A stretch of 39,818 nt of DNA from a virus. The stretch is from the IMG/VR virus record IMGVR_UViG_3300000052_000001, positions 1 to 39,818 of that record; one strand, written 5' to 3'. Positions 6,106-21,020 of the stretch are shown piece after piece (position 1 is the stretch's first letter; each line of letters begins with the position of its first letter). A model generated the notes under the pieces. That model made no database searches. It had not been told where the DNA came from and saw only the letters and a list, made by a program, of their open reading frames with translations. Both the position numbers and the translations under genes were made by a program.

Positions 6106-6822
6106 TTAGGCTGCTTGCTGGAAGGTCAGGCGCTGGTGGATCTGGCGAACCCGCTCAACGTCGCCAGCGCAGTACCGGGCAACGTCAGCGATGCGGCCAG
6201 CCTTCACGAAGTCCCAAACCTTGCTGCCGTCGATTTCGTCTTCGATCTCGCTGCCCTTGCCGGCAATGCCGAAGGCGCGACACAGCTTGTCCAGGCTGAC
6301 GCGGTTACGTGCGCCGGCCCATGCGGTCATGGTGTCGAAGACCGTCTTGTCCCACGGCTTCGCGTCGAAGGGCAGGCACTCTGGCGGGCGAATGCCCAGC
6401 ATTACCGCGCGCTGGAAGATGAAGCGCAGATCGAAGTCCAGGACGTTATGCCCGATTATCGTCGGCGCCGATCCGGTGCGAGTGCCGCCAGCAAGCATCC
6501 TGCCGCCCGCGCCACTCACCGCAGCGAAGAACCCAGCAAGCATGTCTCGCTCAGCTTCCGGCGTGCCGTAGGCATCGTGGTAGAGCGTCACTGGCTCATC
6601 GTCACCGATGGCGTAACCGATGACAGCGATGTGACCGAGCGCGCCGTCGAAGCTGGTCTTGCGCCAAGCCTCGTCGATTGCGGCCTCGCGACACTCTGCG
6701 TTCCACTTGGCGATTGTTTCCGGCTTGCTCATGCTGGCCGGATGGGAAACAGATTCCGCGATCAGTTCGCGCACCGCTGGCGACTGGCCGGGTATGGTTT
6801 CGATATCTAGATGGATGTTCAT
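6106..6822 (-). CDS. DnaQ-like 3'-5' exonuclease (PolB-exo-like, RNase H fold)
   Basis: Exo motifs HLDIETIP (DxE), IIGHNVLDFDLRF and YCAGDVERV. ATG at 6822 with a GGAG Shine-Dalgarno. Confidence 0.8.
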   Translation of the reverse strand: MNIHLDIETIPGQSPAVRELIAESVSHPASMSKPETIAKWNAECREAAIDEAWRKTSFDGALGHIAVIGYAIGDDEPVTLYHDAYGTPEAERDMLAGFFAAVSGAGGRMLAGGTRTGSAPTIIGHNVLDFDLRFIFQRAVMLGIRPPECLPFDAKPWDKTVFDTMTAWAGARNRVSLDKLCRAFGIAGKGSEIEDEIDGSKVWDFVKAGRIADVARYCAGDVERVRQIHQRLTFQQAA

Positions 6823-9370: not shown

Positions 9371-9554
9371 TGCATCGGGGAGCCAGCTGTGCTACTGAGC
9401 GCGGGGTGCGCCAACACCTTGTTCCGCTTGCGCTTCGCTGGCTGCCGTGGGAGTAATTGGCGCCCAGCTGGCTCTCCGATGCAGGCTCTTAACGCGAGCC
9501 ATTCGGCACATCCCGCAGGCGTGTACTACCTGCTGACGTGCTGCCGGGGTTTTT
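9371..9554 (+). ncRNA. Candidate structured RNA antisense to the early-left operon: 19-bp stem, small hairpin, then a terminator-like hairpin with a U-tract
   Basis: Arms 9371..9389 and 9465..9483 pair over 19 bp. The only non-Watson-Crick pair is G.U on the plus strand and would be C.A on the minus strand. Hairpin ggctc/gagcc at 9484..9501. Stem cccgcag/ctgc(c)ggg at 9512..9549 followed by TTTTT. No promoter recognised. Confidence 0.35.
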
Positions 9555-9702
9555 CAGTCTCAAGGCACGATCCGGCTAATCCTCGTCACAGTTATCCGCT
9601 GCCGGCCCGCCGTGCTCGGGTGTGATATGTGCCTGCTACCGATCCCCGGCAGGCGCTGGGCAGGAGGTGTCTTCCGTGACGCCGGATCGGCTCCGGCTGT
9701 GT

Positions 9703-11185: not shown

Positions 11186-11827
11186 CTACAGCACCTCGCC
11201 TTTGAAGATCACGACGCCAAGAATGCTGTCGCCATCGCCAAGCTTCACGATCCTGTCGGGCCAGGCGTCATTGAGAGCCTTTAAGTAGCGGCTGCCGCCC
11301 TCTGTGAATAGCTGCCGAAACATCGGCTCGCCTCCCTGTGCCAGCTGCGCAACGACCAGTGCGCCGTCGACGACCGCGCGGTCGGGATCGACATAAATGA
11401 AGTCGCCCGGCCGGAAGGACCGTGGTGACCTGGCGCAAAGCATCGACTCCCCCGAGACGCGCAATGCAAAGGTGCGTGGGCCGTGCTGAACCGGGCAGGG
11501 CACCCAATCCTCGGCATCCGTAGCTTTGAACGACTGCATAGATTCCATCCATTGTGTTATGTGGCCCCAGGATATTACCGGGACACTACTGGATGGAATA
11601 CCAGTATTTTCAGCGCCAGACCGCATTGTTGCGGCGTCTATGACTCCGCTCAAGGAAATTCCAAGCGCTGCGAACAGTTTCGCCAAGATTTCCTGGCTTG
11701 CGCCCTGCTTGCCGCGCTCAACCCGCGACAAATTGCCCGCGTCGGCACCAACCATGCCGGCCAGCTCTTCGAGGGTCATCCCCTTGGCAAGCCTTGCTTT
11801 GCGGATGGCAACTCCGATCTCGCTCAT
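11186..11827 (-). CDS. cI-type repressor (XRE HTH plus S24 LexA-like autopeptidase)
   Basis: 213 aa from MSEIGVAIRKARLAKGMTLEELA. C-terminal GESM (Ser nucleophile) and a downstream Lys (YLKALN). Divergent from cro. Confidence 0.9.
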   Translation of the reverse strand: MSEIGVAIRKARLAKGMTLEELAGMVGADAGNLSRVERGKQGASQEILAKLFAALGISLSGVIDAATMRSGAENTGIPSSSVPVISWGHITQWMESMQSFKATDAEDWVPCPVQHGPRTFALRVSGESMLCARSPRSFRPGDFIYVDPDRAVVDGALVVAQLAQGGEPMFRQLFTEGGSRYLKALNDAWPDRIVKLGDGDSILGVVIFKGEVL

Positions 11828-11976
11828 TTCGATACGCCCCTGATAAACGGTCGTTTCATCTTCTACTTTAATGCACATTACGCAAAAGCGCACAGAACAA
11901 ATTGTGCTTGCAACACATATGTTTCTAGCGCAAAATCTGTGGCGCAACTGGGAACATTGGCAGCGAGGGAAGTTCC
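11828..11976. promoter_or_regulatory. Divergent pRM/pR promoter-operator region; candidate pR is TTGCAA-17-CAAAAT (11908..11936, plus strand)
   Basis: AT-richer than its surroundings. Alternating CACA/TGTG inverted elements (GCACAgaacaaatTGTGCttgcaaCACA). Motifs ACGCAAA, AGCGCAAA and GAACATTG are shared with the pL region. Confidence 0.5.
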
Positions 11977-12213
11977 GTGACGCCACTGAAAAAAGCGCGA
12001 CTGGCCAAAGGCTGGGTTCTGGAGGACGTGGTTTTCCGACTGAAGCGCATCGGCGGGTCAGCGGACGTAGGAAACCTGTCCCGCATCGAGCGGGGCTTGC
12101 AGAAAGCATCTGTTGAGCTGGCGGCATCACTTGTCCGGGTTTTCGGCAAGCGCTCCCTAAGCGAGATGCAGGTGCTGTACCCCGAGCGGTACATGGAAAA
12201 AGAAAGCGCGTGA
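11977..12213 (+). CDS. cro: Cro-like XRE-family HTH regulator
   Basis: GTG start 7-8 nt after GAGGGA. 78 aa. LKKARLAKGWVLEDV...GNLSRIERG parallels the repressor HTH. Confidence 0.8.
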   Translation: MTPLKKARLAKGWVLEDVVFRLKRIGGSADVGNLSRIERGLQKASVELAASLVRVFGKRSLSEMQVLYPERYMEKESA

Positions 12214-17007: not shown

Positions 17008-18542
17008 TGGTTGCACGCAAGGCGACGGACGAAGACTTGCAAGAGGCGTTTGGCTCGATGAGCCTGCGGCAGATGGCCCGGCACTTCAACATGAATCACC
17101 GGACCATCGAGCGCCGCTTGCAGCGCCTCGGATTGGGCCGCACGGATAGCGTGGAGCCTGTGCCAATGCAGGCAGAGACCTACGTTATCACGGCGGCGGT
17201 AAATGCCACCAAGGCCCATGCCGGCTTCCTCAAGACCTTGCAGCTCTACTGCTCGATGCGCGGGGCGCGCCTGGTCGTGATCCCGATGCGCTACAAGAAC
17301 CCGACCCGTCGCGACGAAGTGGCCGATGACGACTGGTGGGACGCTCGCCTGGCGCCGTACATCACCCACGAGCGGACCAAGCTCGCCAAGGGGCTGGTGG
17401 TGCTGGCGGACATCAAGATTCAGCCGACCGCCGTTAACCCCCTGCAGGGCTGGCTGACGGTATCAGGGACTGATTCGGCCATCCTCGGGCATACCAAGAT
17501 CGCGCTGCGCACCGTGGCGACCAATCCGGGCGTGCCGGCAAAGCTGGTCCTGACTACCGGGGCCTGTACGGTCGAGCAGTACAGCGACACCAATGCCGGG
17601 CGTCGCGGCGAGTTTCACCACACGCTCGGGGCGGTTGTCGTGGAAGTCGACGGAGCGCGCAACCACATCCGCCACATTTGCCCGATGCGCGATGGATCCT
17701 TTATCGACCTCGGCACCAAGTACACCGCGAGGGGCGCAGAGCGGGCGCCACAAGCCGAAGTCCTGACGATGGGGGATATCCATGCGGAGATGGCAGACCC
17801 GAGCGTCACAGAGGCAACCAAGGCTCTCGCCAGCCTGATCCGTCCTCGCTATCTGGTGCTGCATGACGTGCTGAACTTTGGAGCTGCCAGCCATCATGCG
17901 CGCTACTTCGAGAAGTTCCGGCGCCACGTCAGCGGCACAAGCGGCGTGCTGCATGAACTGAAGGCGACCGCGCGTCACGTCGACACCCTGGCGCAGCTTG
18001 CCGATACGACCGTAATCGCTGGATCGAACCACCACGACCACTTCGGCCAGTGGCTAGAGCGCGCCGAACACGCCAACGACATGGAAAACGCCCTGGTGTT
18101 TCACGAAACCAAGGCGGCGATGCTGCGCGCTATCCATGAGGGCGGCTACTGCGACCCGTTCAAGCACTGGATGGACAAGCTCATGACCAGCGGCGACCGC
18201 CTGCATTGGCTCAAGCCCGGCGAGTCGTTCATGCGTCATGGGATCGAATTCGCCTGGCATGGGCATAAAGGCCCGAATGGCGCCCGAGGCTCGACGCGCG
18301 GCTTCGCCAACATCGGCGCCAAAGTCACCAAGGGCCATTCGCACGGAGCCGAGATTATCGACGGCGCCCACTCGGTCGGGACCAGCTCGAAAATGGATAT
18401 GGGCTACAACGTCGACAGCCCGAGTTCCTGGACCCATACGCACGACATTACCTACGCCAACGGCAAGCGGACGCTGATCCACTGCGTAGGTGGGGCATTC
18501 TTTCGCCGCGATGCGGCACAGGCACGGGGAGCCGCAGCATGA
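17007..18542 (+). CDS. 511-aa fusion: N-terminal HTH, unknown central domain, C-terminal calcineurin-like metallophosphoesterase motifs
   Basis: HTH-like LRQMARHFNMNHRTIERRLQRLG. Phosphoesterase motifs GDIHAE (I), LHDVLNF (II, degenerate), GSNHHDH (III), WHGHKG (IV) and GHSHG (V), in the canonical order. Confidence 0.7.
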   Translation: MVARKATDEDLQEAFGSMSLRQMARHFNMNHRTIERRLQRLGLGRTDSVEPVPMQAETYVITAAVNATKAHAGFLKTLQLYCSMRGARLVVIPMRYKNPTRRDEVADDDWWDARLAPYITHERTKLAKGLVVLADIKIQPTAVNPLQGWLTVSGTDSAILGHTKIALRTVATNPGVPAKLVLTTGACTVEQYSDTNAGRRGEFHHTLGAVVVEVDGARNHIRHICPMRDGSFIDLGTKYTARGAERAPQAEVLTMGDIHAEMADPSVTEATKALASLIRPRYLVLHDVLNFGAASHHARYFEKFRRHVSGTSGVLHELKATARHVDTLAQLADTTVIAGSNHHDHFGQWLERAEHANDMENALVFHETKAAMLRAIHEGGYCDPFKHWMDKLMTSGDRLHWLKPGESFMRHGIEFAWHGHKGPNGARGSTRGFANIGAKVTKGHSHGAEIIDGAHSVGTSSKMDMGYNVDSPSSWTHTHDITYANGKRTLIHCVGGAFFRRDAAQARGAAA

Positions 18543-19084
18543 CCTACCAGAACGTTGTTTCAGCAGTAGTCCGGGCGCTGGCGTCCGAGACGATCAATAG
18601 CGCCGGGGGCTGTGATATGGAGCCCAAGGTGCAAAAAGCGCCCATTCCTGGCGAGATCAGCGGGCGCGAGGCAGCCTTCCTGTTCGACTGCATGGTCCAC
18701 GCCGTCCTGCATCGCGAGCTGACGACAGAGCAGTGGGATGCGTTGACCGCGAAATACTCGACGCACATCGACCGCAAACACGCGGCAATGATGGCCCTGG
18801 CTGCGCGCGTGAAATCCCCGGCGCCGAAGCGTTTCGTCGAGTGTGCGACCGCGACATGGGCTTTCCCGAAACTACCGGGCGCTGACGGCAAGCGGAGTAC
18901 AAATGTACTCCCCTCGGGATGGTACGAGATTGACCGCTGGGATGAGGACGGTCGGCCGCAGAAAACCCTTGAGCGGTGGAGGCGTGACATTCGCCGGGAT
19001 CTGGAGCGGCAGGTAGACGAGGCGCTAGTCGCGGCGCAAGAGCTGCTGGATGCCGAGGGGCTGATACGCGAGTGCGCGGCGTGA
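18539..19084 (+). CDS. Hypothetical protein (181 aa); by position a possible late-gene regulator
   Basis: ATGA overlap with the upstream gene. Last gene of the rightward early operon. No motif recognised with confidence. Confidence 0.6.
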   Translation: MTYQNVVSAVVRALASETINSAGGCDMEPKVQKAPIPGEISGREAAFLFDCMVHAVLHRELTTEQWDALTAKYSTHIDRKHAAMMALAARVKSPAPKRFVECATATWAFPKLPGADGKRSTNVLPSGWYEIDRWDEDGRPQKTLERWRRDIRRDLERQVDEALVAAQELLDAEGLIRECAA

Positions 19085-19104
19085 AAATATTCTGCTCGGG
19101 GGTG

Positions 19105-19132
19105 TTGATTAGGAAATCTTTTCCGGTATAGT
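19105..19132 (+). promoter_or_regulatory. Strong sigma70-type promoter TTGATT-16-TATAGT
   Basis: Near-consensus hexamers in an otherwise GC-rich genome. The spacer contains the inverted repeat GGAAAtctTTTCC (19112..19124), a candidate operator. Confidence 0.65.
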
Positions 19133-19179
19133 GAAGCCATGCCAGCCAATAAGGCGAGGCGAAACCAAGGAGAGACACC

Positions 19180-19398
19180 ATGAACGCAGCACGCCAATTC
19201 ATCGAAGCCATCGCATCCAACATGGCCGAACTCAAGAAGCCGCTGATCGACATTCGCAACGTGCTGGAAGACGGCGAGGCGCTGACCTACCTCGGCGCAA
19301 CCGATGACGACCAGGAGATGGTCGAGGAAGCGCACGACATGGTTACGGCATGGATCAACGCCGGCCACCTGACCCTCGATCAAGTAACCGAAGCCTGA
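19180..19398 (+). CDS. Small acidic protein (72 aa), candidate anti-CRISPR 1
   Basis: AAGGAGAG Shine-Dalgarno. About 15 Asp/Glu against 4 Lys/Arg. First gene after the strong promoter and upstream of the Aca1-like HTH. Confidence 0.6.
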   Translation: MNAARQFIEAIASNMAELKKPLIDIRNVLEDGEALTYLGATDDDQEMVEEAHDMVTAWINAGHLTLDQVTEA

Positions 19399-19474
19399 GC
19401 CGACCCCAAGCGGCCTGTCCATCGCGGGCCGCAACCAGCCAGCCGAGAGGCGAGGCGAAATCAGGGAGATGAAC

Positions 19475-19693
19475 ATGCCCGCACAAGATTGCAGCGAAGA
19501 GCGCGACACGCTCACCGATGGCGAAATCGAGATCAGCATCAATCGAGTTCGCCCCGAGGCGCCCGTCTGGTGGCGTTGGGCCTGCGCCGATGAGTGGCAG
19601 GGCCTGCCGTTCCAGACAGCAGACCTGAACCCCTCGGATGAGTACGCGCTGCGCACTGTCCGTGACTGGCTGGCGATTGACGATGAAGCCTGA
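19475..19693 (+). CDS. Small acidic protein (72 aa), candidate anti-CRISPR 2
   Basis: Start chosen by analogy of Shine-Dalgarno spacing with the first gene (an alternative ATG lies at 19469). About 17 Asp/Glu against 6 Arg. Trp-rich core. Confidence 0.6.
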   Translation: MPAQDCSEERDTLTDGEIEISINRVRPEAPVWWRWACADEWQGLPFQTADLNPSDEYALRTVRDWLAIDDEA

Positions 19694-19901
19694 CGCCTCC
19701 CGCCACAACCCCGACCCATCCTACCTGCGCGGGTTACTGGAGCAAGCCGGCCTGAGCCAGCGCAAAGCCGCCGAACTGCTGGGTATGAGCGACCGCAATA
19801 TGCGGTACTACCTCGCAGACGAGGGCAGTCCAGCACACAAGCCCGCGCCGTACCCTGTGCAGTTTGCACTGGAATGTTTGGCGGCATGCAAAGAGGGTTG
19901 A
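19683..19901 (+). CDS. aca1: Aca1-like HTH transcriptional regulator (anti-CRISPR-associated)
   Basis: KPDASRHNPDPSYLRGLLEQAGLSQRKAAELLGMSDRNMRYYLA...PAPYPVQFALECLA matches my recollection of Aca1 from JBD30-type phages. Overlaps the upstream ORF by 11 nt. An alternative ATG lies at 19638. Confidence 0.65.
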   Translation: MKPDASRHNPDPSYLRGLLEQAGLSQRKAAELLGMSDRNMRYYLADEGSPAHKPAPYPVQFALECLAACKEG

Positions 19902-19972
19902 CAGAGCGCGCCAATGAGCCGATGATGAGCCATCCTGTCGATTCTGCGCGTTAAGGATTGACACATAACACC

Positions 19973-20015
19973 GAAGCCCCGGCACAGAGCGATCTGGTCG
20001 GGGCTTCTTCGTTTC
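19973..20015 (+). terminator. Rho-independent terminator closing the three-gene cassette
   Basis: 9-bp stem gaagccccg/cggggcttc with a 17-nt loop, followed by TTCGTTTC. Confidence 0.6.
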
Positions 20016-20170
20016 GGGCGTCAACGGCTGTTTGAATGGCTCGCCCCCCATGCGCCCATCCCATCCCCGGCATGCTTGCAATCGGCCTCGCGCCACATGC
20101 AGCACAAACCGCGACCTGAGTACAGGTATCGCCCTGCTGACGAGCGGGGAGTCGGGCTCTACACCTTTCG

Positions 20171-20195
20171 GCCTCGCCTAGTGCGGGGCTTTTTG
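20171..20195 (+). terminator. Second rho-independent terminator upstream of the methyltransferase gene
   Basis: Stem gcctcgc/gcggggc (one G.U pair), loop ctagt, followed by TTTTT. Confidence 0.55.
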
Positions 20196-20212
20196 CATTC
20201 TGGAGTTTCGCT

Positions 20213-20935
20213 ATGTTCGATCTTCGCCTCGGAGACTGCCTTGAGGTGATGGCGGATATTCCAGATGGCAGCGTTGACCTGATCCTGTGCGATCTGCCCT
20301 ACGGCACCACGGCCTGCAAGTGGGATTCGGTAATTCCGTTCGAGCCGCTGTGGGCGCAGTACCGGCGCATTGCCAAGAAGAATGCGGCCATTGTGCTGAC
20401 GGCGAGCCAGCCGTTCACTACGGCTCTAATCGCGTCGAACATGAGCGAGTTCAAGTATTCGTGGGTATGGCGCAAGTCAAACGCCAGCGGCTTTGCAAAT
20501 GCGAAAAAGCGCCCCTTGAAAATATGCGAGGACGTTTGCGTGTTTGCCTGTGGAGTGCCGCCGTACCAGCCGCAGGGTCTTGAAAGACTTATCAAGCCAA
20601 AAGAGCGAAAGGCAAAGGTTGGCGAGGCAGTTGGCGGGAATGGCTTTTACGACGGCTATCTTCAGGAATGGACCAATTACCCGAAGAACATCCTCGAATT
20701 CCAGAGTGATCGCGGCCACCACCCCACACAAAAGCCCGTCGCCCTGATGGAATACCTGATCCGCACCTATACAAATGAGGGCGACACAGTCCTCGATAAC
20801 TGCATGGGCAGCGGAACTACCGGAGTCGCCTGCGCCAACGCAGGCCGCCGCTTCATCGGCATAGAGCGCGATCCCGGCTACTTCGCCATAGCCCAGCAGC
20901 GCATTGCCCAAGCACACCAGGCGCAAGTCGCCTAG
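20213..20935 (+). CDS. Orphan beta-class DNA methyltransferase (N6-adenine/N4-cytosine type)
   Basis: Motif IV DLPYG near the N-terminus and motif I DNCMGSGTTG near the C-terminus. No partner endonuclease. Visibly lower GC than its neighbours. Confidence 0.85.
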   Translation: MFDLRLGDCLEVMADIPDGSVDLILCDLPYGTTACKWDSVIPFEPLWAQYRRIAKKNAAIVLTASQPFTTALIASNMSEFKYSWVWRKSNASGFANAKKRPLKICEDVCVFACGVPPYQPQGLERLIKPKERKAKVGEAVGGNGFYDGYLQEWTNYPKNILEFQSDRGHHPTQKPVALMEYLIRTYTNEGDTVLDNCMGSGTTGVACANAGRRFIGIERDPGYFAIAQQRIAQAHQAQVA

Positions 20936-20941
20936 ACCTTT

Positions 20942-20997
20942 CCGGCTCCCGATCCTGCGTCTTTGCTTAGGCGGATGACAGCGCATCGGAGAGCCGG
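20942..20997 (+). promoter_or_regulatory. Long imperfect hairpin between the methyltransferase and holin genes
   Basis: Arms ccggctcccgat and atcggagagccgg form 12 bp with one bulged A and a 31-nt loop. No U-tract follows. Confidence 0.4.
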
Positions 20998-21020
20998 ACC
21001 CAATCACAAGAGACCTCGTT

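What the first reader, a model, noticed from the sequence alone, without database searches (positions are those of the whole stretch)
19105..20015. Candidate anti-CRISPR operon: strong promoter, two unrecognised 72-aa acidic proteins, Aca1-like HTH, terminator
A near-consensus promoter (TTGATT-16-TATAGT, 19105..19132) drives three short ORFs of 72 aa each. The cassette closes with a 9-bp-stem intrinsic terminator (19973..20015).

The first two products are strongly acidic. The first has about 15 D/E against 4 K/R, and the second about 17 D/E against 6 R. I do not recognise either as a named protein.

The third ORF overlaps the second by 11 nt and encodes an HTH protein. Its sequence (KPDASRHNPDPSYLRGLLEQAGLSQRKAAELLGMSDRNMRYYLA...PAPYPVQFALECLA) matches what I remember of Aca1, the repressor at the 3' end of acr operons in Pseudomonas phages.

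A strong promoter, small acidic proteins and an aca gene together form the guilt-by-association signature used to find new Acr families. The cassette sits between the early-right operon and an orphan methyltransferase, so this stretch may be a counter-defence island.
Basis: partly seen in the sequence, partly recalled or inferred. Interest (0 to 1): 0.85.

Follow-up and report, generated by a model that had tools for sequence, protein, structure and literature searches.

The report
Aca1-controlled operon, two candidate anti-CRISPRs
This is a textbook anti-CRISPR operon in an uncultivated Pseudomonas-type temperate phage: it has the known Aca1 repressor with its DNA operator and RNA hairpins, and it carries two small acidic proteins that match no described anti-CRISPR but sit next to anti-CRISPR regulators in other mobile elements too.

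Summary

**What is confirmed**
- The third ORF is a true Aca1 homologue (E 8e-28 to the solved Aca1 structures, about 71% identity).
- The promoter spacer holds a perfect palindrome, GGAAAtctTTTCC. It has the geometry and position of the JBD30 Aca1 operator but a variant half-site.
- The Aca1-binding RNA hairpin described in 2026 is present twice, once before each small ORF.

**The two small acidic ORFs**
- Neither matches Pfam, NCBIfam, PHROGs or PDB sequences. The confident ORF1 model has no fold match; the ORF2 model was too poor to search.
- The ORF1 family (about 43 clusters) sits directly upstream of three different Aca families. It is the sole cargo of other aca1 operons, lies next to AcrIF11 plus Aca4 on a conjugative element, and lies next to Aca9 in Aeromonas.
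- The ORF2 family (about 35 clusters) also occurs in an Aca4-type operon.

**Verdict**
This is a real Aca1-regulated operon carrying two probable new anti-CRISPR (or at least anti-defence) families. It is a new member of a known kind. Inhibitory activity and target are untested.

The parts
19105..19132 (+). Sigma-70-type promoter: -35 TTGATT (19105-19110), 16-nt spacer, -10 TATAGT (19127-19132).
   Evidence: One search gives 9 of 12 consensus matches. The layout is homologous to the acr promoters of JBD69/JBD30 and about 15 IMG/VR aca1 loci.
19112..19124 (.). Predicted Aca1 operator: the perfect 5-3-5 palindrome GGAAA-TCT-TTTCC, lying inside the promoter spacer.
   Evidence: It is the only perfect match in the window. 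It has the same geometry, the same ATTAGG flank and the same position between -35 and -10 as JBD30 IR2, GGCAC-AAT-GTGCC. Other aca1 loci carry GGAAC, GGCAG or GGCTC variants at the same place.
19141..19160 (+). 5' UTR RNA hairpin GCCAGCC-AAUAA-GGCGAGGC, the Aca1-binding RNA motif (copy 1).
   Evidence: It folds as (((.(((.....)))..))), as in JBD30/JBD69. The stems are conserved in 18 other leaders while the loops vary. The motif and its binding by Aca1 are described in NAR 2026 gkag862.
19180..19398 (+). ORF1: 72 aa, pI 4.1, predicted all-helical. Candidate anti-CRISPR or anti-defence protein.
   Evidence: It has 43 homologue clusters, all unnamed. There is no Pfam, PHROG, NCBIfam or PDB hit. 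The AF2 model has pLDDT 89.9 and no fold match. Homologues lie upstream of Aca1 (L007, L036), of AcrIF11 plus Aca4 (L002-5), and of Aca9 (L130, L008).
19410..19432 (+). Strong G+C hairpin just after the ORF1 stop codon, with no T-tract.
   Evidence: A similar hairpin follows the ORF1 homologue in L002. Its role is unknown.
19438..19456 (+). Second copy of the Aca1-type RNA hairpin, GCCAGCC-GAGA-GGCGAGGC, in the ORF1-ORF2 intergenic leader.
   Evidence: It is the 22-nt direct repeat D1, 91% identical to copy 1, and it adopts the same fold. Intergenic copies of this motif are reported in the 2026 paper and seen in L022.
19475..19693 (+). ORF2: 72 aa, pI 4.05. Candidate anti-CRISPR or anti-defence protein.
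   Evidence: The only match above 90% identity is itself. An exhaustive phmmer search finds 14 true relatives and a profile search finds 35 clusters, sharing the motif RPExPVWWR...WQxxPFQxAD. Homologue P0046 lies in an operon closed by an Aca4-like HTH on a conjugative element. There is no PDB, Pfam, NCBIfam or PHROG hit.
19683..19901 (+). aca1: 72-aa HTH autorepressor. It overlaps ORF2 by 11 nt and has no Shine-Dalgarno sequence of its own, so it is probably translationally coupled.
   Evidence: PDB Aca1 at E 8e-28; phrog_3865 at E 2.8e-35; 129 phage records. DNA-contact residues R16, S25, Q26, R27, S36, R38, R41, Y42 and Y43 are conserved. The positions equivalent to JBD30 V45 and R59 are N39 and K53.
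19973..20007 (+). Terminator hairpin closing the operon, followed by TTCGTTTCG.
   Evidence: dG -28.2 kcal/mol, z -4.5.
20213..20935 (+). Neighbouring orphan N6/N4 DNA methyltransferase. It is context only and not part of the operon.
   Evidence: PF01555 at E 1.4e-29 and phrog_67.

Best explanation
The region 19105..20007 is an Aca1-autoregulated anti-CRISPR (acr-aca1) operon in a lambdoid temperate phage, probably of Pseudomonas.

**Proposed mechanism** (by analogy with JBD30 acrIF1-aca1):
1. On DNA entry the unrepressed sigma-70 promoter fires. One mRNA makes ORF1, ORF2 and, by translational coupling, Aca1.
2. ORF1 and ORF2 are small, very acidic proteins. They bind and block a host defence effector, most likely a type I CRISPR-Cas complex or its nuclease.
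3. As Aca1 accumulates, its dimer binds the palindrome GGAAAtctTTTCC between -35 and -10 and shuts the promoter off.
4. Aca1 may also bind the two RNA hairpins that precede ORF1 and ORF2.
5. A hairpin terminator insulates the downstream genes.

**What is shown here:** the Aca1 identity, the operator-like palindrome, the RNA motifs, the operon anatomy, and the recurrent association of both cargo families with Aca regulators.

**What is inferred:** repression at this variant operator, and any inhibition of CRISPR-Cas by ORF1 or ORF2, including its target and mode.

**Likely history:** ORF2 looks like a later cassette insertion between ORF1 and aca1.
For: **Aca1 identity.** E 8e-28 to 7c0g, 7fa3 and 7vjn, and 61-73% identity to aca1 products in 128 Pseudomonas phages.

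**Promoter homology.** The promoter and leader align with those of JBD69 and L007. About 15 independent IMG/VR aca1 loci share the order -35, TAGG-palindrome, -10, hairpin, Shine-Dalgarno, ATG.

**Operator and residue changes.** The JBD30 operator is GGCAC-N3-GTGCC, and R59 contacts the G opposite the last C. Here the half-site ends in A and R59 is K. V45, which contacts the T opposite A4, is N. This is consistent with co-variation of protein and site.

**RNA hairpin.** Both copies fold like the JBD30 hairpin, and Aca1 binding to this motif is published.

**ORF1 family in other Aca contexts.**
- Sole gene between an Aca1-type promoter and aca1 in L007, and the N-terminal domain of the sole cargo in L036.
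- First gene of an ORF1hom-AcrIF11-Aca4 operon in Ectopseudomonas mendocina. AcrIF11 is supported by NF052490 at 177 bits; the Aca4 is 66% identical to ABR13385.1.
- Directly upstream of an Aca9 protein identical to WP_161506949.1 on an Aeromonas caviae plasmid, and of a 76% identical HTH in phage contig L008.

**ORF2 family.** Homologue P0046 (53% identity) lies in an operon ending in an Aca4-like HTH that is 55% identical to Aca4.

**Cassette history.** ORF1 ends in GAAGCCTGA, the same 9 nt that form the aca1 start junction. ORF2 brings its own copy of the RNA motif.
Against: - No functional data exist for either family.
- Neither resembles a known Acr by sequence, and the ORF1 model has no fold match.
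- Many ORF1 homologues have no aca gene nearby. One is a lone gene between phage head and tail genes, one lies beside Tn7 TnsA/B, and others are in plasmid or phage regions with DarA-like or Lar anti-restriction genes. This fits an anti-defence role in general, not CRISPR specifically.
- One ORF2 subfamily (P0062, 37% identity) is a lone chromosomal gene between an aminotransferase and an efflux pump in Pseudomonas oryzae.
- Leon et al. 2021 tested many aca1- and aca4-linked candidates that showed no activity. That supplement lists accessions only, so a tested negative homologue cannot be excluded.
- The operator half-site GGAAA was seen only here, so Aca1 binding to it is inferred.
- The host and its CRISPR types are unknown.
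Confidence: 0.62

Rival explanations
1. The operon is Aca1-regulated, but ORF1 and/or ORF2 inhibit a defence other than CRISPR-Cas. An example would be restriction-modification, by DNA mimicry in the manner of Ocr or ArdA, or another innate system.
For: Both proteins carry a net charge of about -11. ORF1 homologues lie in plasmid regions with DarA_N/ddrB-ParB genes and in a phage early region that ends with a Lar restriction-alleviation gene. The window cassette sits next to an orphan methylase. The 2026 Aca paper predicts that Aca proteins also control other anti-defence genes.
Against: Nearly all characterised cargo of aca1, aca4 and aca9 operons is anti-CRISPR. One ORF1 homologue shares its operon with AcrIF11. 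There is no similarity to Ocr, ArdA or any other known anti-restriction family in Pfam, NCBIfam or PDB.
Confidence: 0.2
2. ORF1 and ORF2 are accessory genes with no counter-defence role, for example modulators of Aca1 or of phage development, superinfection exclusion factors, or selfish passengers. On this view their link to Aca genes reflects only shared recombination hot-spots.
For: No function is known. ORF1 homologues occur without an aca gene in several contexts, and an ORF2 subfamily is a lone chromosomal gene. The conserved leader and junction sequences could spread any cassette.
Against: Association with three unrelated Aca families in different kinds of element (phage, conjugative element, plasmid) is hard to explain by a single hot-spot. 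In L007 and L036 the ORF1-type gene is the only cargo of the operon, which would leave those acr-type operons with nothing to regulate.
Confidence: 0.13
3. The region is not a unit. On this view the promoter and terminator are chance matches, the small ORFs are non-coding, and only the HTH gene is real.
For: Promoter-like hexamers are expected by chance at about 1.5 per 5 kb. ORF2 has no close relatives apart from its own database entry. A 456-aa antisense ORF (18544..19914) spans the region, as is common in high-GC DNA.
Against: Both ORFs have conserved protein families. The promoter, operator and hairpin are homologous to those of many aca1 loci. GC3 is gene-like. The antisense ORF runs opposite four genes that all have homologues.
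Confidence: 0.02

Closest known systems
acrIF1-aca1 operon of Pseudomonas phage JBD30/JBD69, and other aca1 operons of Casadabanvirus phages
   Same: - The Aca1 repressor is about 71% identical.
- A 5-3-5 palindromic operator with an ATTAGG flank lies between -35 and -10.
- The GCCAGCC/GGCGAGGC hairpin is conserved in the 5' UTR.
- The small cargo gene overlaps aca1.

   Different: - The half-site is GGAAA, not GGCAC.
- Aca1 has N and K at the positions of JBD30 V45 and R59.
- No convincing upstream second operator (IR1) is present.
- There are two cargo genes, each preceded by its own hairpin.
- The phage is lambdoid (CI-like repressor, helicase and primase, TerS/TerL), not Mu-like. The operon lies after the early genes rather than between head genes.
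acrIF11-aca4 operons of Pseudomonas islands and conjugative elements (Marino 2018; Shehreen 2022)
   Same: Homologues of ORF1 (76% identity) and ORF2 (53% identity) are cargo of such operons. ORF1's homologue lies directly beside a bona fide AcrIF11.
   Different: The window uses Aca1, not Aca4, and has no AcrIF11. The promoters and leaders are unrelated.
Aca9-linked acr loci (Pinilla-Redondo 2020; Shehreen 2022)
   Same: An ORF1-family gene lies directly upstream of an Aca9 protein on an Aeromonas caviae plasmid, and upstream of a 76% identical HTH in a phage contig.
   Different: The regulator family and the host genus differ. Those ORF1 relatives are only 51-69% identical to the window protein.
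Small acidic DNA-mimic anti-CRISPRs such as AcrIF2 and AcrIF10 (recalled from the literature, not tested here)
   Same: Similar size (about 70-100 aa) and a strong negative charge.
   Different: There is no detectable sequence similarity for either protein, and no fold similarity for the ORF1 model. Charge alone does not establish mimicry.

Membership tests
Aca1 (anti-CRISPR-associated protein 1) | Significant full-length sequence similarity to JBD30 Aca1 | tested here: met
   E 8e-28 to PDB 7c0g over residues 2-67; phrog_3865 at E 2.8e-35; about 71% identity to the JBD5 and JBD24 aca1 products.
Aca1 (anti-CRISPR-associated protein 1) | DNA-contact residues of the HTH (JBD30 R22, S31, Q32, R33, S42, R44, V45, R47, Y48, Y49, R59) | tested here: inconclusive
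   Nine of eleven are identical. V45 is N39 and R59 is K53 (alignment; contacts). R59A abolished binding in JBD30, so the effect of K at this position with an altered operator is unknown.
Aca1 (anti-CRISPR-associated protein 1) | Palindromic operator overlapping the operon's promoter | tested here: met
   GGAAAtctTTTCC at 19112-19124, between -35 and -10, is unique in the window. The geometry matches JBD30 IR2. The half-site differs, as it does among other aca1 loci.
Aca1 (anti-CRISPR-associated protein 1) | Conserved 5' UTR RNA hairpin bound by Aca1 (NAR 2026 gkag862) | tested here: met
   Two copies, at 19141-19160 and 19438-19456, have the 3+3-bp stem architecture.
Aca1 (anti-CRISPR-associated protein 1) | Last gene of an operon of small genes on a mobile element | tested here: met
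Aca1 (anti-CRISPR-associated protein 1) | Represses the acr promoter | not testable with these tools
   This needs EMSA or a reporter assay.
Anti-CRISPR protein (any named Acr family): ORF1 | Homology to a described Acr family | tested here: not met
   No hit in Pfam, PHROGs, NCBIfam, PDB sequences (single sequence and profile) or PDB/BFVD folds. The family motifs are absent from the sequence supplements of Pinilla-Redondo 2020, Shehreen 2022 and Gussow 2020, the last of which was truncated when stored.
Anti-CRISPR protein (any named Acr family): ORF1 | Encoded upstream of an aca gene in the same operon, recurrently and with different Aca families or known Acrs | tested here: met
   Aca1 in the window, L007 and L036. 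Aca4 plus AcrIF11 in L002-5. Aca9 in L130 and L008.
Anti-CRISPR protein (any named Acr family): ORF1 | Inhibits a CRISPR-Cas system | not testable with these tools
   This needs plaque or transformation assays.
Anti-CRISPR protein (any named Acr family): ORF2 | Homology to a described Acr family | tested here: not met
   No hit in Pfam, PHROGs, NCBIfam or PDB. The AF2 model was too poor (pLDDT 55) for a fold search.
Anti-CRISPR protein (any named Acr family): ORF2 | Encoded upstream of an aca gene, recurrently | tested here: inconclusive
   Two Aca contexts were found: Aca1 in the window and an Aca4-like HTH in L040/L041. Other members lie in small-gene regions of mobile elements with no recognised aca gene, and one subfamily is chromosomal.
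Anti-CRISPR protein (any named Acr family): ORF2 | Inhibits a CRISPR-Cas system | not testable with these tools
   This needs plaque or transformation assays.

The most novel reading that the evidence does not exclude
ORF1 and ORF2 found two new anti-CRISPR families. ORF1's family travels with three unrelated Aca regulators (Aca1, Aca4, Aca9) across phages, plasmids and conjugative elements of Pseudomonas and Aeromonas. That spread would suggest a broad-spectrum inhibitor, or one aimed at a conserved Cas component, built on a fold not seen in solved structures. In addition, the window's Aca1 (N39/K53) paired with a GGAAA operator would be a natural example of a repressor and its operator re-specifying together.
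Probability: 0.45. Interest if true: 0.65.

Novelty: new member of a known kind. Interest (0 to 1): 0.55.

Why it matters
- **New inhibitor candidates.** New Acr families are still sources of new inhibition mechanisms and of off-switches for CRISPR tools.
- **ORF1 is well supported.** It recurs with three Aca families and beside AcrIF11, has a confident small helical model, and comes with about 40 homologues to test.
- **The operon illustrates cassette assembly.** Each acr gene here carries its own Aca1-binding RNA hairpin, and a junction scar marks where a second gene was inserted.
- **A test case for specificity.** The variant Aca1/operator pair can be used to study how Aca repressors change DNA specificity.
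- **Limits.** The operon type itself is well known, and guilt-by-association discovery is routine in this field.

Tried and rejected
**Searches that found nothing informative**
- Megablast of 18500-21000 against phages hit only a methylase fragment in a Stenotrophomonas phage, so no close relative is deposited.
- tblastn of ORF2 against phages gave no match.
- The search for related loci for the ORF1 family in representative genomes found none. For the ORF2 family in viral and genome collections it either failed or found none.
- The metagenome scan with Aca1 returned only three true Aca1 loci, none with the N39/K53 variant and none with a detected palindrome or hairpin. The GGAAA operator could therefore not be corroborated elsewhere.
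- Rfam has no family in 19000-20300.
- The canonical JBD30 operator GGCAC-N3-GTGCC does not occur near the promoter, and hits with 2 mismatches are at chance level.
- An upstream IR1-like second operator was looked for by eye. TGAAAATATTCTG at 19082-19094 has 4 mismatches and was rejected.

**Structure work**
- The ORF2 structure was predicted without an alignment, before relatives were known.
- Fold searches with the ORF1 model were uninformative. The best PDB hit was E 3; the best BFVD hit was E 0.04, to an unnamed protein.

**Literature checks for prior description**
- Searching for accession WP_143503287 and for peptide motifs returned nothing relevant.
- The family motifs are absent from the supplements of Pinilla-Redondo 2020, Leon 2021, Shehreen 2022 and Gussow 2020. 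Leon's lists give accessions only and Gussow's file was truncated, so prior testing cannot be ruled out.
- AcrIF25 and AcrIF26 were found in Acinetobacter through aca7/aca10; AcrIF26 is a beta-sheet AcrIF9-like protein. Neither was compared with ORF1/ORF2 at the sequence level.

**Artefacts**
- P0045, the top hit for ORF2, is a 1153-aa tandem-repeat protein and was treated as an artefact.
- The local Pfam copy lacks PF26151, so AcrIF11 identity in L002 was confirmed with NCBIfam instead.
- The 456-aa antisense ORF 18544..19914 was rejected as a high-GC artefact.
Full report
**1. The observation**

- A sigma-70-type promoter, TTGATT-16-TATAGT, lies at 19105..19132.
- Three 72-aa ORFs follow: ORF1 at 19180..19398, ORF2 at 19475..19693, and ORF3 at 19683..19901.
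- ORF2 also has an in-frame ATG at 19469. That codon overlaps the GGGAG Shine-Dalgarno sequence, and the database protein starts at 19475.
- ORF1 has 15 D+E against 4 K+R (pI 4.10). ORF2 has 17 D+E against 6 R (pI 4.05). ORF2 and ORF3 overlap by 11 nt. GC3 is gene-like.
- The hairpin at 19973..20007 folds at -28.2 kcal/mol with z = -4.5. Its T-tract is weak.

Promoter-like hexamers alone are not beyond chance: the shuffles gave 1.5 per 5 kb. The weight of the promoter call therefore comes from homology, described next.

**2. The regulator and its sites**

ORF3 matches the solved Aca1 structures 7c0g, 7fa3 and 7vjn at E 8e-28 to 3e-26 over residues 2-67. It also matches phrog_3865. It is 61-73% identical to the aca1 product of 128 Pseudomonas phages.

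The JBD30 operator is GGCAC-N3-GTGCC. The published contacts are R47 and R44 to the two G bases, Y48 to C3, V45 and Y48 to the T opposite A4, and R59 to the G opposite C5 (PMC8633003).

The window has no such site near the promoter. It does have a perfect palindrome, GGAAA-TCT-TTTCC, at 19112..19124. This is the only perfect copy in 39.8 kb. It lies in the promoter spacer and is preceded by the same ATTAGG flank as JBD30 IR2.

In 15 or so independent IMG/VR aca1 loci the same layout recurs: -35, TAGG-palindrome, -10. The half-sites vary among GGCAC, GGAAC, GGCAG and GGCTC, and the residue at the V45 position varies with them (V, A, S, T, M, Q).

The window's Aca1 keeps nine of the eleven DNA-contact residues. 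It has N at the V45 position and K at the R59 position, and its half-site ends in A where R59 would read a G. I take this as a variant operator-repressor pair. This is an inference: I found no second locus with the same pair.

**3. The RNA motif**

Directly after the -10 element the leader reads CATGCCAGCCAATAAGGCGAGGCGAAACCAAGGAGA. This is homologous to the JBD69/JBD30 leader and to the leaders of nearly all the aca1 loci retrieved. The stems GCCAGCC and GGCGAGGC are constant while the loops vary.

A second copy precedes ORF2. It is the 22-nt repeat D1, 91% identical to the first. Both copies fold into the same hairpin, with 3+3 base pairs and a small internal loop, as in JBD30.

This is the Aca1-binding 5' UTR motif published in September 2026 (NAR gkag862). 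That paper also reports copies between genes inside operons. Its authors state that the effect of binding is unknown. The feature is therefore known, and it serves here as independent confirmation that this is an acr-aca1 operon.

**4. ORF1**

ORF1 has no hit in Pfam, PHROGs, NCBIfam or PDB sequences, whether searched as a single sequence or as a profile.

It has 43 homologue clusters, all unnamed, sharing the motif IASNM...LEDGEAL..LGATDDDQE.(V/I)EEAH. With that alignment AlphaFold gives a confident helical model, pLDDT 89.9. The model has no significant match in PDB or BFVD.

The genomic contexts are the telling part.

- **L007, a phage contig.** A 77% identical homologue is the only gene between an Aca1-type promoter, operator and hairpin and aca1. 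It overlaps aca1 by 11 nt.
- **L036.** An ORF1-like domain forms the N-terminus of the sole 121-aa cargo of another aca1 operon.
- **Ectopseudomonas mendocina and three metagenome contigs.** A 76% identical homologue (alignment A1) opens an operon of ORF1hom, AcrIF11 and Aca4 on a conjugative element. AcrIF11 is supported by NF052490 at 177 bits against a cutoff of 50. The Aca4 is 66% identical to reference ABR13385.1.
- **Aeromonas caviae plasmid pSS332-218k.** A 69% identical homologue is followed at once by an HTH protein. That protein is identical to WP_161506949.1, which Shehreen et al. 2022 list under Aca9. A phage contig (L008) has the same pair, with an HTH 76% identical.
- **Aeromonas phage phiA005.** This phage has an ORF1-like gene followed by a short ORF whose N-terminus resembles the L008 HTH, by eye.
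- **Other homologues.** These lie without a recognisable aca gene. One is in a plasmid region with DarA/ddrB-ParB genes. One is a lone opposite-strand gene between phage head and tail genes. One is beside Tn7 TnsA/B. One is in a phage early region ending with Lar.

**5. ORF2**

The word-indexed search found only the protein itself. The exhaustive phmmer search found 14 true relatives, and a profile search found 35 clusters. They share I-E-x-S-x-N-x-x-RPExPVWWR...WQxxPFQ(T/S)AD. In some proteins this domain sits at the C-terminus of a longer chain.

No hit was found in Pfam, PHROGs, NCBIfam or PDB. The single-sequence model was poor.

The closest relative, P0046 (53% identity, Geopseudomonas aromaticivorans), lies in a four-gene operon on a conjugative element. 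The gene order is 133 aa, P0046, 94 aa, HTH. The HTH is 55% identical to Aca4 and 55% identical to the Aca4 of the ORF1hom-AcrIF11 locus. The two Aca4-type promoters share inverted repeats and the leader CATGGAAGGCG.

Other relatives sit among small unnamed genes on plasmid-like or phage-like contigs. One subfamily is a lone chromosomal gene in Pseudomonas oryzae. The association evidence is thus weaker for ORF2 than for ORF1.

**6. Assembly of the operon**

The window and L007 are homologous at the DNA level from the operator through ORF1 to ...GATCAAGT. In L007 the gene then runs into aca1 through the junction GATGAGGCCTGA. In the window, ORF1 ends ...GAAGCCTGA, the same nine bases that form the ORF2/aca1 junction ATGAAGCCTGA. 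After that come a G+C hairpin, a second RNA motif, and ORF2.

The simplest reading is that an ORF2 cassette carrying its own leader was recombined in between ORF1 and aca1. This is an inference.

**7. Context**

The window is a lambdoid-type temperate phage.

- A CI-like repressor lies on the minus strand at 11186..12130.
- A helicase and a primase follow on the plus strand.
- Next comes a 511-aa protein of phrog_1745 ("DNA transfer protein").
- Next comes a 181-aa protein with homologues in Pseudomonas phages. PS-1 gp41 is 69.6% identical; there it follows RusA and Lar and precedes HNH and holin genes.
- Then come the acr operon, an orphan PF01555 methylase, TerS, TerL, the portal and the major head protein.

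**8. Verdict**

The operon identity is secure; I put it at about 0.9. Confidence that ORF1 and/or ORF2 are anti-CRISPRs rests on association only. I put the full explanation at about 0.6. An anti-defence role against another system is the main rival.

The kind of system is well known, and the RNA motif and operator architecture are published. What is new is two uncharacterised cargo families and a variant Aca1-operator pair. The rating is therefore 'new member of a known kind', with moderate interest.

Noticed in passing
window 9539..9620 (-): Rfam Proteo-phage-1 sRNA (RF03044), a full-length match at 64 bits against a gathering score of 42. It lies in the leftward early region.
   Followed up: no
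window 19898..20212: A roughly 300-nt untranslated stretch lies between aca1 and the methylase. It holds a promoter-like TTGACA-17-GATGAT (10 of 12) that overlaps the aca1 stop codon, a second TTGACA at 19949, the operon terminator, and a second terminator-like hairpin with TTTTT at 20170..20200, just before the methylase start. Together with the 181-aa gene in the lambda-Q position, this resembles a late promoter with a terminated leader that is read through by antitermination.
   Followed up: partly
window 18539..19084 (+): A 181-aa protein (phrog_3412, unknown function) is the last gene before the acr operon. Its homologue in Pseudomonas phage PS-1 (gp41, 69.6% identity) follows RusA and Lar and precedes HNH and holin genes. 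It may be a Q-like late regulator. The slot after it appears variable between phages.
   Followed up: partly
window 19410..19432 (+): A strong G+C hairpin (GCGGCCTGT..GCGGGCCGC) lies right after the ORF1 stop codon and has no T-tract. A comparable hairpin follows the ORF1 homologue in L002 (4221..4240). It may be a cassette boundary or an RNA-stability element.
   Followed up: no
window 19390..19398 versus 19685..19693: ORF1 ends in GAAGCCTGA, the same 9 nt as the ORF2/aca1 overlap junction. In L007 the ORF1 homologue joins aca1 through GAGGCCTGA. This looks like a scar left when the ORF2 cassette was inserted.
   Followed up: partly
L036 1639..2004: An ORF1-like domain is fused to a C-terminal extension of about 55 aa. 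The resulting protein is the sole 121-aa cargo of an aca1 operon.
   Followed up: no
proteins P0050, P0052, P0053, P0058: The ORF2-type domain also occurs at the C-terminus, or in the middle, of longer proteins of 152-338 aa. It therefore behaves as a mobile domain.
   Followed up: no
L002 3880..3960 and L040 2880..2940: The two Aca4-type operons that carry ORF1 and ORF2 homologues share a promoter layout. An inverted repeat overlaps the promoter and the leader CATGGAAGGCG is conserved, which hints at a conserved 5' UTR element for Aca4 operons as well.
   Followed up: no
window 6745..6757: GGAAACAGATTCC is a one-mismatch copy of the predicted operator. It lies inside overlapping ORFs of the left arm. 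About 0.5 such hits are expected by chance, so it is probably not meaningful.
   Followed up: no
L022 1711..1760: Another aca1 locus has a second, intergenic copy of the hairpin motif (CCAGCCACAATGGCGAGGC) in front of a second cargo gene. This parallels the arrangement in the window.
   Followed up: no
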